Virus record (IMG/VR): IMGVR_UViG_3300047313_000015
Location: 1 to 64,000 of that record
Source: a virus
Taxonomy: Duplodnaviria > Caudoviricetes
Length of the DNA: 64,000 nucleotides
Direction: 5' to 3' (one strand)
The translations under genes were made by a program, and so were the position numbers. Positions 48,868 through 63,973 of the stretch are shown here, one piece after another (the stretch's first letter is position 1; each line of letters begins with the position of its first letter). The notes beneath the pieces are model-generated. The model made no database searches and was not told where the DNA came from. It saw nothing but the letters and a program-made list of their open reading frames with translations.

Positions 48868-49767
48868 ATGTCCGCAGAGGGTCAGGACAAGATCTATACC
48901 ATGATCACCGACAAGATCATGGACGCACTGAAGAATGGCACCGTGCCATGGCGTAAGCCCTGGACCGCTGGTGGATGGCTGCCAGTGTCGATGTCCAGCC
49001 GTAAGCCGTATCGTGGCGTCAACATATGGCTACTGGCCATGGAGGCCGCAGAGCGTGGATATGACTCACCGTTCTGGGGCACATTTAAGCACATTGCGGA
49101 ACTGGGCGGCCAGGTCCGCAAAGGCGAAAAATCGTCAATCGTGGTTTTCTGGAAAAGAATCATGGTGGATGACAAGAATGCGCCTGACGGCAAGAAGGCC
49201 TTGTTCATGCTCCGCTACTATCGCGTGTTCAACGCCTGCCAGGCTGACGGTCTGCCGGATCGGTTTTACCCGGCTAAGGACAGTCCAGACAAGCCCGTAG
49301 AGGTGCTGGATGACGCGGAGGCCATCGTCAAGGGCTATCTGTCCGGTGACGGCCCTAGGCTGGTCAAGGTGGTTGGTAACCGTGCATTCTACACACCCGC
49401 TACGGACACGATCACGCTGCCAGAAGATGGGCAGTTCAGTTCAGCGGGCGGACGGTACTCGACCGTATTTCATGAGTGCGCCCATTCCACGGGTCACGCA
49501 TCCCGGCTGAGCCGTCCCGGACTGACCGATTTTGATCACTTCGGTTCCGGTCAGTACGCGCAGGAAGAACTAGTGGCTGAAATGACTGCTTCCTACCTGG
49601 CCGGTGTCTGCGGTATTGACACCGAACTAGACCAGAGTGCGGCCTATATCGCTAGTTGGCTCACGAAACTAGCGAACGATCACAAGATGGTCATCAGGGC
49701 CGCTGCGCAGGCACAGCACGCCGCCGACCTTATCCGTGGAATCAGTCACACGAATAACGAGAGCTAG
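48868..49767 (+). CDS. ardC: ArdC-family antirestriction ssDNA-binding protein with metallopeptidase domain
   Basis: PWRKPW, YRGVN, VRKGEK, VFN..Q, HE..HSTGH..RL.R, YA.EELVAE, SAAYI.SW. Confidence 0.92.
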   Translation: MSAEGQDKIYTMITDKIMDALKNGTVPWRKPWTAGGWLPVSMSSRKPYRGVNIWLLAMEAAERGYDSPFWGTFKHIAELGGQVRKGEKSSIVVFWKRIMVDDKNAPDGKKALFMLRYYRVFNACQADGLPDRFYPAKDSPDKPVEVLDDAEAIVKGYLSGDGPRLVKVVGNRAFYTPATDTITLPEDGQFSSAGGRYSTVFHECAHSTGHASRLSRPGLTDFDHFGSGQYAQEELVAEMTASYLAGVCGIDTELDQSAAYIASWLTKLANDHKMVIRAAAQAQHAADLIRGISHTNNES

Positions 49768-52658: not shown

Positions 52659-52737
52659 GGGACTGGGCGGTATCGACGGATAAGGAAAACCGCACGCGGA
52701 CCTTATCCGGACCTGGGTTCGATTCCCAGCAGTTCCA
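52659..52737 (+). ncRNA. mini-tmRNA: tRNA-like domain only, no mRNA-like domain
   Basis: GGGACTG/CAGTTCC-A with G3.U70; D-loop GGTATCGAC; P2 CGGATAAGG/CCTTATCCG; GAC linker; T arm CTGGG-TTCGATT-CCCAG. Confidence 0.8.
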
Positions 52738-52752
52738 CGTAATTGCATAAAG

Positions 52753-61240: not shown

Positions 61241-61313
61241 TTGGAGGTGTTTCGTATGGAGTCGAACCAAAGAGAGAACCGCAGAACTCCTGCCGATTTA
61301 GTACGGCCCATAG

Positions 61314-61390
61314 CTGGCAAGTGGCGGATCGAACACCTTGAGCGCGGGGTTGGAAGCCGCGACCGGCCCAGCCGGTTTATCTACTCACCA
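61314..61390 (-). tRNA. atypical tRNA-Trp(CCA)
   Basis: TGGTGAG/CTTGCCA acceptor, loop TTCCAAC, long D hairpin, C-C mismatch in the anticodon stem. Confidence 0.5.
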
Positions 61391-62292: not shown

Positions 62293-62310
62293 GCTTGCCT
62301 CCCTCTTACG

Positions 62311-62399
62311 TGGACCTGGCGGGATTCGAACCCGCGAGCACCACAGCGTTCAGGCGAGGGGTCTCGCTTCACCGCTGACGACTAGTCGGTTTCAGGCCC
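62311..62399 (-). ncRNA. Ala-identity, anticodon-less tRNA/tmRNA-TLD-like RNA
   Basis: GGGCCTG/CAGGTCC-A (G3.U70), T arm GCGGG-TTCGAAT-CCCGC, long hairpin in place of the anticodon arm. Confidence 0.7.
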
Positions 62400-62590: not shown

Positions 62591-62812
62591 TAGCCTGCCT
62601 ACCGTAGGTGCGGGGCTGATCATTGTCAGCCGTCTAACTGGGGTAGGTCAGGACCTTTCGAAAAATACGCTGATCGGAGTTCCCGCCATCTGATCAGGAG
62701 CAGCGGCCACGGCAGTGACCACGGGTTGCTGTGAACGGGCTCATACGAGCTATTACCGTTCCGCGTAATCAGGTCTGCCGACCTGTCTCGTGAGGTCCCC
62801 TGGACCTCTTAG

Positions 62813-62889
62813 CGCGGGTGATGGGATTCGAACCCACATGCATCCAGTTACCTTTTCGACTGTTTAGGAAACAGAGAGGATACACCCGT
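62813..62889 (-). tRNA. non-canonical tRNA-Arg(CCT)-like RNA with rewired D/anticodon topology
   Basis: acceptor and T arm normal; anticodon hairpin CTGT-TTCCTAA-ACAG precedes the GGTAA D-loop-like segment. Confidence 0.65.
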
Positions 62890-62952
62890 GTGTCTAAACG
62901 ATCTTGAACTTTTGTACCTCCGGAGCGGGCCGGAAGCCCGGAATTCATTCCG

Positions 62953-63031
62953 TACCCCCGCTAGGAATCGAACCTAGCTTGCCAACGGCGTGAGTTTTAC
63001 AGACTCACTGCTGCACCAGCAGCACGAAGGT
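62953..63031 (-). tRNA. tRNA-Tyr(GTA)
   Basis: GTGAGT-CTGTAAA-ACTCAC, short variable arm, T arm. Confidence 0.8.
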
Positions 63032-63032
63032 G

Positions 63033-63104
63033 TGGTGACGAGCCAGCCATCGAAGGACAACGCTTGAGAGTTTATGAGGCTCTCTCGGCCAACCTGCGCC
63101 CGTC
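63033..63104 (-). tRNA. degenerate tRNA (CAT; Met or Ile2)
   Basis: GACGGGC/GCTCGTC-ACCA, CTCATAA loop, weak D and T arms. Confidence 0.5.
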
Positions 63105-63109
63105 TTGTG

Positions 63110-63182
63110 TAGACCCGGTGGGACTCGAACCCACGATTACCTGTTTGTAGGACAGGAGCCCTTGCCGCTGGACGACGAGTCT
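63110..63182 (-). tRNA. tRNA-Val(TAC)
   Basis: cloverleaf; loop CCTACAA (C33). Confidence 0.85.
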
Positions 63183-63196
63183 GTATTTTTACTGCG

Positions 63197-63271
63197 CACT
63201 CCTGACAGGGGTCGAACCTGCATGATCCATTACCCTTTCATCTGGTTCGAAGCCAGAGGGGATACAGGAGC
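63197..63271 (-). tRNA. non-canonical tRNA-Arg(TCG)-like RNA with rewired D/anticodon topology
   Basis: same architecture as 62813-62889; CTGG-CTTCGAA-CCAG. Confidence 0.65.
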
Positions 63272-63283
63272 CTATATCTTACG

Positions 63284-63357
63284 CGCACCCAGAAGGACTC
63301 GAACCTTCACAAGACGCGGCTCCGCAAGCCGCCGCACGTCCCTCGTGCTGTGGATGC
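63284..63357 (-). tRNA. tRNA-Arg(GCG)
   Basis: GCGGC-TTGCGGA-GCCGC, complete cloverleaf. Confidence 0.8.
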
Positions 63358-63430
63358 TAGCCCGGAGTCTCTCTATATCCCGCCTGTCGGCTCTCCGGAT
63401 CACCTTTCGGTGCTGCCCTGCGGCAGGGGA

Positions 63431-63564
63431 CAAATGGAGGGGCGTTCTCTCCGCTGAACTATCACTCGTAACTGCACCGATATCAAATGCAGCCTCCCAG
63501 CCTACTTGCGCGCTTACTCGGCGGGAAGAGAGTGAGCCGGATTCGAACCGACGTTTCCCCTTTG
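63431..63564 (-). ncRNA. circularly permuted tRNA mimic (YrlA Y-RNA-like topology)
   Basis: order GGGG-AAAC-T arm-TCACTC...GAGTGA-TA-D arm-G-CCCC. Confidence 0.7.
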
Positions 63565-63894: not shown

Positions 63895-63896
63895 CG

Positions 63897-63973
63897 TACC
63901 GATGACCGGAATCGAACCGGCAACTCCTCTGCTTGAGGGGCAGGGTGCGAACCACCAGATGGCGCGCATCGGC
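63897..63973 (-). tRNA. tRNA-Glu(CTC)
   Basis: GCCGATG/CATCGGT, loop CCCTCAA, T arm. Confidence 0.8.

What the first reader, a model, noticed from the sequence alone, without database searches (positions are those of the whole stretch)
62813..63271. Two tRNA-Arg-like RNAs with the anticodon hairpin placed ahead of the D-loop-like segment
Seen: A (62813-62889) ACGGGUG-UAUCCUCU-CUGU-UU[CCU]AA-ACAG-UCGAAAAGGUAACUGGAUGCAU-T arm-CACCCGC-G. B (63197-63271) GCUCCUG-UAUCCCCU-CUGG-CU[UCG]AA-CCAG-AUGAAAGGGUAAUGGAUCAU-T arm-CAGGAGU-G. Both lack a D hairpin before the anticodon arm; a GGUAA D-loop-like segment and GGAU (complementary to the 5' AUCC) come after it. The acceptor stems differ but pair, CCU/AGG versus CCC/GGG covary, and both carry canonical 7-nt loops with Arg anticodons. 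Inference: an alternative connectivity that rebuilds the L-shape, possibly a functional tRNA class that evades host tRNases and is missed or called pseudo by tRNA finders.
Basis: partly seen in the sequence, partly recalled or inferred. Interest (0 to 1): 0.78.

Follow-up and report, generated by a model that had tools for sequence, protein, structure and literature searches.

The report
Phage arginine tRNAs with permuted core
Two unannotated genes in this phage's tRNA cluster are very probably working arginine tRNAs (anticodons CCU and UCG) whose D-arm pieces are joined in a different order from the textbook cloverleaf; well over a hundred phage sequences share this layout, tRNA finders miss it, and I found no paper that describes it.

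Summary
They belong to a large, almost phage-only family. I found 127 distinct members in IMG/VR loci, plus copies in Streptomyces, Microbacterium, Rhodococcus, Mesorhizobium, Salmonella and Vibrio phages. A strict family pattern hit only 8 contigs in 185,579 cellular genomes, all MAG contigs.

The conserved fold has a 7-bp acceptor stem, U8 A9, and a 3-bp helix "X" that encloses the anticodon arm. A canonical D-loop string (A14 A15 .. G18 G19 A20 .. A21) follows, then a T arm. In effect, tRNA positions 22-48 come before positions 10-21. Helix X pairs in 99% of cells and shows many compensatory changes.

Anticodons are almost all Arg (UCU, ACG, CCU, UCG, GCG), with a few Ile. This phage has a third member (UCU) just outside the window. 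With one cloverleaf tRNA-Arg(GCG), the four genes read all six Arg codons without overlap. In two related Streptomyces phages, cloverleaf and permuted Arg tRNAs of the same anticodon occupy the same syntenic slots.

There are no expression or charging data, and evasion of nucleases is untested. This scan has flagged the same class on other genomes. I found no published description.

The parts
62813..62889 (-). Permuted-core tRNA-Arg(CCU), gene A: 77 nt including discriminator G at 62813
   Evidence: Sequence; R1 covariance model 85.1 bits, E 1.3e-21, full length; not called by ARAGORN; Rfam tRNA 24.7 bits, below the 29-bit cut-off
62883..62889 (-). A: acceptor 5' strand ACGGGUG; pairs with 62814-62820 (CACCCGC); 1:72 is an A.C mismatch
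   Evidence: family acceptor helix 98.7% paired, all 7 pairs with changes on both sides
62877..62879 (-). A: helix X 5' strand CCU (equivalent to tRNA positions 23-25), preceded by U8 A9 U at 62880-62882
   Evidence: Pairs with AGG at 62851-62853; helix X 99.3% paired, 43/33/15 cells changed on both sides; 81/81 perfect in the unbiased set
62859..62875 (-). A: anticodon arm UCUGU-UUCCUAA-ACAGU; anticodon CCU at 62866-62868; 27:43 is U.U
   Evidence: U.U at 27:43 in 64 of 96 Arg members
62854..62858 (-). A: 5-nt linker CGAAA between the anticodon stem and helix X 3' strand
   Evidence: Alignment A1; the length and sequence vary between subfamilies (5, 8 or 11 nt)
62851..62853 (-). A: helix X 3' strand AGG (equivalent to positions 10-12)
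62838..62850 (-). A: U13 plus D-loop-like string AACUGGAUG (A14 A15 C U G18 G19 A20 U G), then CAU ending in U48
   Evidence: Alignment A1: AA 95/96, GGA 96/96, U48 96/96 in Arg members; near-identical to the D loops of cloverleaf phage tRNA-Arg
62821..62837 (-). A: T arm GUGGG-UUCGAAU-CCCAU
63197..63271 (-). Permuted-core tRNA-Arg(UCG), gene B: 75 nt including discriminator G at 63197
   Evidence: R1 83.2 bits, E 4.2e-21; not called by ARAGORN; Rfam best hit is tRNA-Sec at 22.1 bits
63259..63261 (-). B: helix X 5' strand CCC; pairs with GGG at 63233-63235
63241..63257 (-). B: anticodon arm UCUGG-CUUCGAA-CCAGA (5 bp, U27:A43); anticodon UCG at 63248-63250
63222..63235 (-). B: helix X 3' strand GGG, U13, D-loop-like AAUGGAU and CAU (U48)
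63205..63221 (-). B: T arm GCAGG-UUCGACC-CCUGU
63283..63357 (-). Cloverleaf tRNA-Arg(GCG), the only Arg tRNA that ARAGORN finds in the genome. Together with A, B and the third permuted copy (UCU, genome 64253-64326, outside the window) it completes the Arg decoding set

Best explanation
A and B are genes for functional elongator tRNA-Arg (anticodons CCU and UCG) with a circularly permuted core.

The 5' and 3' ends form a normal 7-bp acceptor stem stacked on a normal T arm. After U8 A9 the chain runs straight into the strand that corresponds to positions 22-25 of an ordinary tRNA. It continues through position 26 and the anticodon arm, then crosses a short linker. Only then does it supply the strand corresponding to positions 10-13, followed by a canonical D loop (A14 A15 Y Y G18 G19 A20 N A21). 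Three nucleotides (CAU, ending in U48) lead into the T stem.

The D stem (helix X, with G10:C25 kept) therefore closes the anticodon arm instead of the D loop. Every element that builds the tRNA elbow and core is still present: U8:A14, A15:U48, and G18/G19 with the T loop.

Inferred steps, not shown: the RNA folds into an L-shape; RNase P and the CCA-adding enzyme mature it; the host ArgRS charges it through A20 and C35; and it reads AGG (A) and CGA/CGG (B) for the phage.

The likely origin is a tandem duplication of the central domain of a tRNA-Arg followed by loss of the outer halves. The design would then have spread among phages, with anticodon switches within Arg and occasionally to Ile.
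For: (1) Family and covariation. The same layout occurs in Streptomyces, Microbacterium, Rhodococcus, Mesorhizobium, Salmonella and Vibrio phages. It also occurs in 127 distinct IMG/VR sequences.

I took 98 distinct hits to a pattern that does not include the helix X 5' strand. Of these, 81 fit the register, and 81/81 have a perfect Watson-Crick helix X, using 14 different triplet pairs. On alignment A1 (101 sequences), helix X is 99.3% paired, with 43/33/15 cells changed on both sides. The whole structure is 95.5% paired against 62.0% in shuffles, and 0 of 500 shuffles reach the observed value. RNAalifold predicts the same fold de novo.

(2) Canonical tertiary and identity positions are kept: UA at 8-9 in 101/101, A14 A15 in 95/96, U48 in 96/96, and GGA (G18 G19 A20) in 96/96 Arg members. 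Three of the 4 Ile members have GGU instead. That A20 and C35 are ArgRS identity elements is established knowledge for E. coli.

(3) Anticodons among the 127 distinct sequences are UCU 56, ACG 43, CCU 13, UCG 9, GCG 1, Ile UAU 3 and GAU 1. U33 and A37 are conserved.

(4) This genome carries three permuted Arg tRNAs: CCU, UCG, and UCU at genome 64253-64326 (51.7 bits). It has one cloverleaf Arg(GCG). These four non-overlapping anticodons cover all six Arg codons. The permuted ones would serve 900 of 1566 Arg codons.

(5) Streptomyces phages Stanimal and Mildred21 share three syntenic slots. Each slot holds a cloverleaf Arg in one phage and a permuted Arg of the same anticodon in the other (UCG, ACG, CCU). 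Within the stretches examined, each phage has exactly one gene per anticodon. The D-loop strings are nearly identical between the two forms.

(6) Re-ordering the pieces in silico turns 0/101 ARAGORN calls into 101/101, and 98 of those carry the family anticodon.

(7) The family is almost virus-only. All 8 are MAG contigs, and most of them carry several tRNA genes close by.
Against: No 3D model was possible with the tools here.

The anticodon stem usually has only 4 Watson-Crick pairs plus U27.U43. Helix X has only 3 pairs plus a U.U. It is unknown whether EF-Tu, the ribosome and modification enzymes accept the rewired core.

Gene A has an A1.C72 mismatch and G in place of A21. In A and B the alternative AUCC:GGAU pairing competes in single-sequence folding.

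Most family members were collected with patterns that demand GAAA, TAA and GGA, so conservation of those letters is partly built in. The blastn-derived members from isolated phages, and the extra copies found in the fetched loci, were not selected by those patterns, and they also carry GGA.
Confidence: 0.8

Rival explanations
1. tRNA-like decoys or regulatory RNAs. They fold like tRNA-Arg and present an Arg anticodon loop, but they are not charged or not used in decoding. For example, they could act as sponges for a tRNA-Arg-directed nuclease or modifier, or as processing punctuation within the tRNA array.
For: The family is virus-restricted. The anticodon stem-loop and elbow motifs are the most conserved parts. 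No charging data exist. Some phages carry a cloverleaf tRNA-Arg gene directly beside the permuted one (L003).
Against: A decoy would not need a covarying 7-bp acceptor stem, a discriminator that is A or G in 87 of 96 Arg members, or one gene per Arg anticodon that complements the cloverleaf set. Cloverleaf and permuted genes of the same anticodon replace each other at syntenic slots. The loss of A20 in Ile-anticodon members fits aminoacylation identity rules.
Confidence: 0.12
2. Decaying pseudo-tRNAs: remnants of rearranged tRNA-Arg genes with no function.
For: This phage's array does contain low-scoring and fragmentary tRNA-like pieces. A has an A1.C72 mismatch.
Against: Compensatory changes maintain all four helices across phages of Actinobacteria, Alpha- and Gammaproteobacteria. 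The anticodon loops are intact. More than 120 distinct sequences keep the same register.
Confidence: 0.03
3. A precursor that RNA processing (cleavage and religation, for example by phage RNA ligase) re-orders into an ordinary cloverleaf tRNA.
For: Several carrier phages encode RNA ligase, polynucleotide kinase and a nucleotidyltransferase near their tRNA arrays. Permuted tRNA genes that mature through circular intermediates are known in the red alga Cyanidioschyzon merolae (established knowledge).
Against: Here the ends are already in the normal place. Converting the order would need two cuts and two ligations inside the core. No bulge-helix-bulge or other splice motif is conserved at the joints. 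The joints themselves (U10'/U13, C26, CAU) are conserved as if they were part of the mature RNA.
Confidence: 0.03

Closest known systems
Canonical class I bacterial/phage tRNA-Arg (Rfam RF00005), e.g. the cloverleaf Arg(UCG) and Arg(ACG) of Streptomyces phage Stanimal and E. coli tRNA-Arg(ICG)
   Same: 7-bp acceptor stem and 5-bp T arm with a UUCRANY loop. U8 A9, G10:C25, A14, A15:U48, G18 G19 and A20 are kept, along with a 7-nt anticodon loop with U33 and A37 and the Arg anticodons. The D-loop string is almost identical (AAUGGAUA). They occupy the same genomic slots and the same place in the decoding set.
   Different: The order of the core segments differs: 22-25, 26 and the anticodon arm come before 10-13 and the D loop. 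The D stem therefore closes the anticodon arm, and the secondary structure is a three-way junction rather than a four-way one. There is an extra 5-11-nt linker. The 27:43 position is usually U.U. Scores fall below the Rfam and ARAGORN thresholds.
D-armless metazoan mitochondrial tRNAs, e.g. mt-tRNA-Ser(AGY) (PMC9427863; review PMC7609411)
   Same: There is no D hairpin between the acceptor and anticodon stems.
   Different: Mitochondrial D-armless tRNAs have lost the D stem, G18 G19 and the canonical T-loop contacts, and they need adapted partners. Here all of these are retained but relocated. ARAGORN's mitochondrial mode does not call A or B.
Circularly permuted tRNA genes of Cyanidioschyzon merolae and some archaea (established knowledge)
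   Same: A circular permutation of tRNA sequence, probably arising from tandem duplication plus loss.
   Different: In those genes the whole gene is permuted (the 3' half lies upstream of the 5' half), and processing restores an ordinary cloverleaf. Here only the inner domain (10-48) is permuted, the termini are normal, and the mature RNA is expected to keep the new connectivity.
Other natural non-standard tRNAs: tRNA-Sec (8/5, 9/4), tRNA-Pyl, allo-tRNAs (PMC7609411)
   Same: Functional tRNAs that depart from the 7/5 cloverleaf and are missed or mis-scored by standard models.
   Different: Those keep the usual arm order and change stem lengths. Here the stem lengths are standard (7/5) and the order changes.
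Engineered tRNA with a non-canonical fold evolved in E. coli (PMC11551756)
   Same: It addresses whether bacterial translation can use a non-cloverleaf tRNA.
   Different: That work is a laboratory construct, and its abstract states that all known bacterial tRNAs are cloverleaf. The present family would be a natural counter-example encoded by phages.

Membership tests
tRNA (Rfam RF00005 / canonical cloverleaf) | 7-bp acceptor stem closed by the 5' and 3' ends, plus a discriminator | tested here: met
   A and B; family helix 98.7% paired with compensatory changes at all 7 pairs
tRNA (Rfam RF00005 / canonical cloverleaf) | T arm: 5-bp stem and a 7-nt loop UUCRANY | tested here: met
   (99% paired; TTC and A invariant)
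tRNA (Rfam RF00005 / canonical cloverleaf) | Anticodon arm: 5-bp stem and a 7-nt loop with U33 and purine 37 | tested here: met
   Loop met in A and B. The stem is 4 Watson-Crick pairs plus U.U in A and 5 bp in B. The family 27:43 position is unpaired in 72/101
tRNA (Rfam RF00005 / canonical cloverleaf) | D arm: a hairpin between position 9 and position 26 | tested here: not met
   There is no hairpin there. The strand that pairs with nt 11-13 lies after the anticodon arm
tRNA (Rfam RF00005 / canonical cloverleaf) | Score at or above the curated threshold, or called by tRNA finders | tested here: not met
   A scores 24.7 bits against a threshold of 29; B has no RF00005 hit reported and its best hit is tRNA-Sec at 22.1 bits. 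ARAGORN calls neither at default, -ps90, -ps80 or -mt
tRNA (Rfam RF00005 / canonical cloverleaf) | Core tertiary nucleotides U8, A14, R15:Y48, G18 G19, A21 | tested here: met
   All are present and conserved, but in permuted order. Their 3D contacts are inferred, not shown
tRNA-Arg identity (bacterial ArgRS) | C35, U/G36 and A20 (established knowledge for E. coli) | tested here: met
   Anticodons are CCU and UCG. GGA is present in A and B, and in 96/96 Arg members against 1/4 Ile members. Charging itself was not tested
Functional tRNA (any) | Mature 5' end, added CCA, aminoacylation and use on ribosomes | not testable with these tools
CCA is not encoded after either gene
D-armless mitochondrial-type tRNA | Loss of the D stem and of the G18 G19 / T-loop elbow contacts; short connector | tested here: not met
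   The helix X, GG and canonical T loop are retained. ARAGORN -mt makes no call
Circularly permuted tRNA gene (C. merolae type) | 3' half upstream of the 5' half, with termini inside the gene; processing restores a cloverleaf | tested here: not met
   The acceptor strands are at the gene ends. Only positions 10-48 are permuted
   A 85.1 bits, B 83.2 bits, third copy 51.7 bits; ordinary tRNAs score no more than 32 bits

The most novel reading that the evidence does not exclude
These are fully functional elongator tRNAs with a natural non-cloverleaf core that the bacterial ArgRS, EF-Tu and ribosome accept. Phages keep the rewiring because it makes their tRNA-Arg (and tRNA-Ile) invisible to a tRNA-directed defence or shut-off enzyme that recognises the D-arm/core of cellular tRNAs. 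The phage can then keep reading Arg codons while host tRNA-Arg is destroyed or inactivated.
Probability: 0.2. Interest if true: 0.92.

Novelty: new variant of a known kind. Interest (0 to 1): 0.82.

Why it matters
If these RNAs are charged and decode, they are a natural, widespread exception to the rule that tRNAs used by bacterial translation are cloverleaves. They would show that the L-shape can be built from a different strand topology.

That bears on how synthetases, RNase P, EF-Tu and the ribosome read tRNA shape rather than connectivity. It offers a ready-made orthogonal scaffold for tRNA engineering.

It also means that tRNA inventories and codon-usage analyses of many large phages are incomplete or wrong. 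Examples seen here include a member annotated as tRNA-Phe, one as tRNA-OTHER, one with a tRNA-Val annotated at its position, and one lying under a 'hypothetical protein' CDS.

The restriction to viruses raises a testable question about tRNA-targeting defence and counter-defence.

Tried and rejected
It is present in A and B and appears in the single-sequence MFE of A. Across the family it is only 69% paired, with 0/3/0/2 compensatory cells. I rejected it as the conserved pairing.

(2) A reading in which the anticodon hairpin is an insertion inside a normal D loop. I rejected it because the D-loop string follows the 3' strand of helix X rather than lying inside the helix. G10:C25 and A14 also fit the permutation model.

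(3) ARAGORN with relaxed thresholds and in mitochondrial mode. A and B are still missed; the third copy is called 'tRNA-???' only at -ps80.

(4) The in-silico re-ordering test. It shows that all parts of a cloverleaf are present. A control with the two X strands swapped is also called, so the test cannot decide the strand assignment.

I ran one pattern scan of cellular genomes instead.

(7) HNH homing endonuclease adjacency as a DNA-level explanation. An HNH gene lies beside the permuted gene in A3Wally, SSBI34, Vibrio F100 and one Mildred21 slot. It is absent at the other two swapped slots and absent here. I keep this only as a lead.

(8) Seven full-text literature searches and one review found no description. 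Subscription journals are not covered.

(9) No close relative of the whole phage exists in the phage collection.

Full report
**Context.** The window is the first 64 kb of a single 97,339-bp virus contig with 57.9% GC. It encodes a large terminase and an ArdC-like protein and has a portal-like region. It has no close relative in the phage collection. A minus-strand tRNA array runs from 61165 to 72282. ARAGORN finds 29 tRNAs there, and only one of them is Arg (GCG, 63283-63357).

**Observation.** Each has a 7-bp acceptor stem, UA at positions 8-9, and no hairpin before the anticodon arm. Each has a canonical 7-nt anticodon loop (anticodon CCU in A, UCG in B), about 20 nt containing GG, and a canonical T arm. 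ARAGORN misses both, even at relaxed thresholds and in mitochondrial mode. Rfam scores them below its cut-offs: tRNA 24.7 bits for A, tRNA-Sec 22.1 bits for B.

**Relatives.**
- blastn of A and B against isolated phages found the same layout in Microbacterium phage A3Wally and a close relative (anticodon ACG).
- It found it in Streptomyces phages Francob, Stanimal, Mildred21 and many of their relatives.
- It found it in Rhodococcus phage NiceHouse (ACG), Mesorhizobium phage Cp1R7A-A1 (ACG), Salmonella phage SSBI34 (UCU) and a group of Vibrio phages (UCU).
- Most of these copies are unannotated. Others are mis-annotated. The Mildred21 copies are labelled 'tRNA-Phe(gaa)' and 'tRNA-OTHER'. In Yaboi a tRNA-Val is annotated at the matching position. 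The NiceHouse copy lies under a 'hypothetical protein' CDS.
- A covariance model (R1) then found 148 matches of at least 59 bits in the fetched loci, which reduce to 127 distinct sequences.
- The same strict pattern hit only 8 contigs among 185,579 cellular species genomes. All 8 are MAG contigs, and most of them carry several tRNA genes close by. The family is therefore essentially viral.

**Structure.** It is a 3-bp helix (X) between nt 11-13 and the triplet that precedes a conserved UAA.
- In an unbiased set, the search pattern specified neither the helix X 5' strand nor any pairing. There, 81 of 98 distinct hits fit the register, and 81/81 have a perfect Watson-Crick helix X using 14 different triplet pairs.
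- On the 101-sequence alignment A1, helix X is 99.3% paired, with 43, 33 and 15 cells changed on both sides. The whole structure is 95.5% paired against 62.0% in shuffles, and 0 of 500 shuffles reach the observed value. Sliding the partners by one column drops pairing to 47-48%.
- The AUCC:GGAU alternative is 69% paired with almost no compensatory change.
- RNAalifold predicts the same fold without being told it.

**What the fold means.** Read against standard tRNA numbering, the order is:
- positions 1-7, then U8 A9;
- U plus the X 5' strand (= 22-25, last base usually C), then C26;
- the anticodon arm (27-43, with 27:43 usually U.U);
- a linker (UGAAA in the main subfamily, 8-11 nt in others);
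- the X 3' strand plus U (= 10-13, first base usually G);
- A14 A15 Y Y G18 G19 A20 N A21, then C A U48;
- the T arm and positions 66-73.

G10:C25, a non-Watson-Crick 13:22, U8 with A14, A15 with U48, and G18 G19 facing a canonical T loop are all as in ordinary tRNAs (the roles of these positions are established knowledge). The inner domain 10-48 is circularly permuted so that it starts at position 22. The three new joints are 9 to 22, 43 to 10, and 21 to 49. They connect residues that lie close together in the known tRNA core. That closeness is my inference from textbook tRNA structure, not a model. When the pieces are put back in standard order in silico, ARAGORN as tRNAs, 98 of them with the family anticodon, against 0/101 for the native order. 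The D-loop strings are nearly identical to those of cloverleaf tRNA-Arg in sister phages, for example AAUGGAUA.

**Evidence that they work as tRNA-Arg.**
1. Anticodons in the 127 distinct sequences are UCU 56, ACG 43, CCU 13, UCG 9, GCG 1, Ile UAU 3 and GAU 1, with one misaligned.
2. A20, an ArgRS identity element in E. coli, is present in 96/96 Arg members, but 3 of 4 Ile members have U there. The search patterns enforced GGA for many Arg members. The blastn-derived members and the extra copies found in the fetched loci were not selected by those patterns, and they also have GGA.
3. R1 finds a third member in this genome just past the window end (genome 64253-64326, minus strand, anticodon UCU, 51.7 bits). 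Its helix X is of the NiceHouse type. The phage's Arg set is therefore GCG (cloverleaf) plus UCG, CCU and UCU (permuted). These four non-overlapping anticodons cover all six codons. The permuted ones would serve 900 of 1566 Arg codons in the long ORFs.
4. Stanimal and Mildred21 share three syntenic slots: after tRNA-Lys(UUU), after tRNA-Thr(GGU), and before tRNA-Ile(GAU). Each slot holds a cloverleaf Arg in one phage and a permuted Arg of the same anticodon in the other. Within the stretches examined, each phage has exactly one gene for each of ACG, UCG, CCU and UCU. That is what interchangeable, functional alleles would look like.

**What is not shown.** The 4-bp anticodon stem and the 3-bp helix X are weak. 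A has an A1.C72 mismatch and G in place of A21. Restriction to viruses is compatible with it, but also with simple descent and horizontal spread within phage tRNA arrays. An HNH endonuclease gene lies next to some copies but not consistently.

**Comparison with known kinds.** This is not a mitochondrial-type D-armless tRNA, because the D stem, GG and T loop are retained. It is not a C. merolae-type permuted gene, because the termini are normal. It is not a tRNA-Sec or allo-tRNA type, because the stem lengths are standard. Seven full-text searches and a review of non-canonical tRNAs turned up no description. A 2024 paper states that all known bacterial tRNAs are cloverleaf (PMC11551756 abstract).

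**Earlier notes of this scan.** The scan's own earlier notes report the same class on other genomes. I reached the permutation reading before seeing them and re-tested it here. They are not independent evidence.

**Verdict.** The best explanation is a pair of functional permuted-core tRNA-Arg genes (confidence 0.8). This is a new structural variant of a known kind of molecule. Interest is high, because a simple tRNA-seq and charging experiment on any of several culturable phages would settle it.

Noticed in passing
L130:253-326 (-) = genome 64253-64326, just outside the window: A third permuted-core tRNA-Arg (anticodon UCU, R1 51.7 bits). Its helix X is AUG[G]C:GCAU, and its acceptor stem is identical to that of the Rhodococcus phage NiceHouse copy. 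ARAGORN calls it 'tRNA-???' only at -ps80.
   Followed up: yes
window 62952-63031 (-): tRNA-Tyr(GUA) with a 6-bp D stem, a 4-nt D loop and a 6-bp anticodon stem. It matches Rfam tRNA-Sec (37.5 bits), and no tRNA-model hit is listed for it.
   Followed up: partly
window 63283-63357 (-): The only cloverleaf tRNA-Arg (GCG) has C8 instead of U8, and its D loop (GAGGGAC) lacks A14 and A21. The Rfam tRNA model reports no hit for it.
   Followed up: partly
window 61313-61390, 62310-62388, 63896-63973 (all -): Further low-scoring tRNA-like genes, called only at relaxed ARAGORN thresholds. One has a 9-nt anticodon loop (CUUCCAACC; read as Gly UCC or Trp CCA; the genome has no other Trp tRNA). One is read as 'Phe GAA'. 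One is 'Glu CUC' with C33.
   Followed up: partly
window 63358-63563 (-): The spacer after tRNA-Asp starts with a T-arm hairpin plus an acceptor 3' strand (UCACUCU). About 60 nt later there is a matching acceptor 5' strand, UA and a canonical D arm, but no anticodon arm. This could be a fragment pair, or a gene-level permuted or tmRNA-like tRNA domain. The fold z-score is about 0. Unexplained.
   Followed up: partly
window 62591-62812 (-): A 222-nt spacer between tRNA-Cys and gene A folds much better than shuffles (z -3.2; 0 of 200 shuffles fold as well). No Rfam match.
   Followed up: no
window 52659-52740 (+): An 82-nt match to Rfam tmRNA (56.1 bits, above the gathering score) that covers only the ends of the model, that is, a tRNA-like domain without the tag region. 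ARAGORN finds no tmRNA.
   Followed up: no
L130:5801-5874 (-) = genome 69801-69874: ARAGORN calls a 'tRNA-Stop(UUA)', a putative ochre suppressor, but the loop has A33 instead of U33. TAA is the commonest stop among the long ORFs (51/104).
   Followed up: partly
L008, L009, L180 (Streptomyces phages Stanimal and Mildred21): Cloverleaf and permuted tRNA-Arg of the same anticodon alternate at three syntenic slots. A permuted tRNA-Ile(GAU) sits directly after the tRNA nucleotidyltransferase gene in both phages. Public annotations label permuted genes as tRNA-Phe(gaa) or tRNA-OTHER, or leave them out.
   Followed up: yes
L001:2583-2945, L004:6102-6461, L005:6283-6840, L009:20932-21366: HNH endonuclease genes lie directly beside the permuted tRNA genes in A3Wally, SSBI34 and Mildred21, and about 200 nt downstream in Vibrio F100. 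This may point to mobility or a DNA-level advantage. No HNH gene lies beside A or B.
   Followed up: partly
window 48868-49767 (+): An ArdC-like anti-restriction protein with a zincin metallopeptidase domain (Pfam ArdcN 1.5e-34, MPTase-PolyVal 2.1e-33).
   Followed up: no
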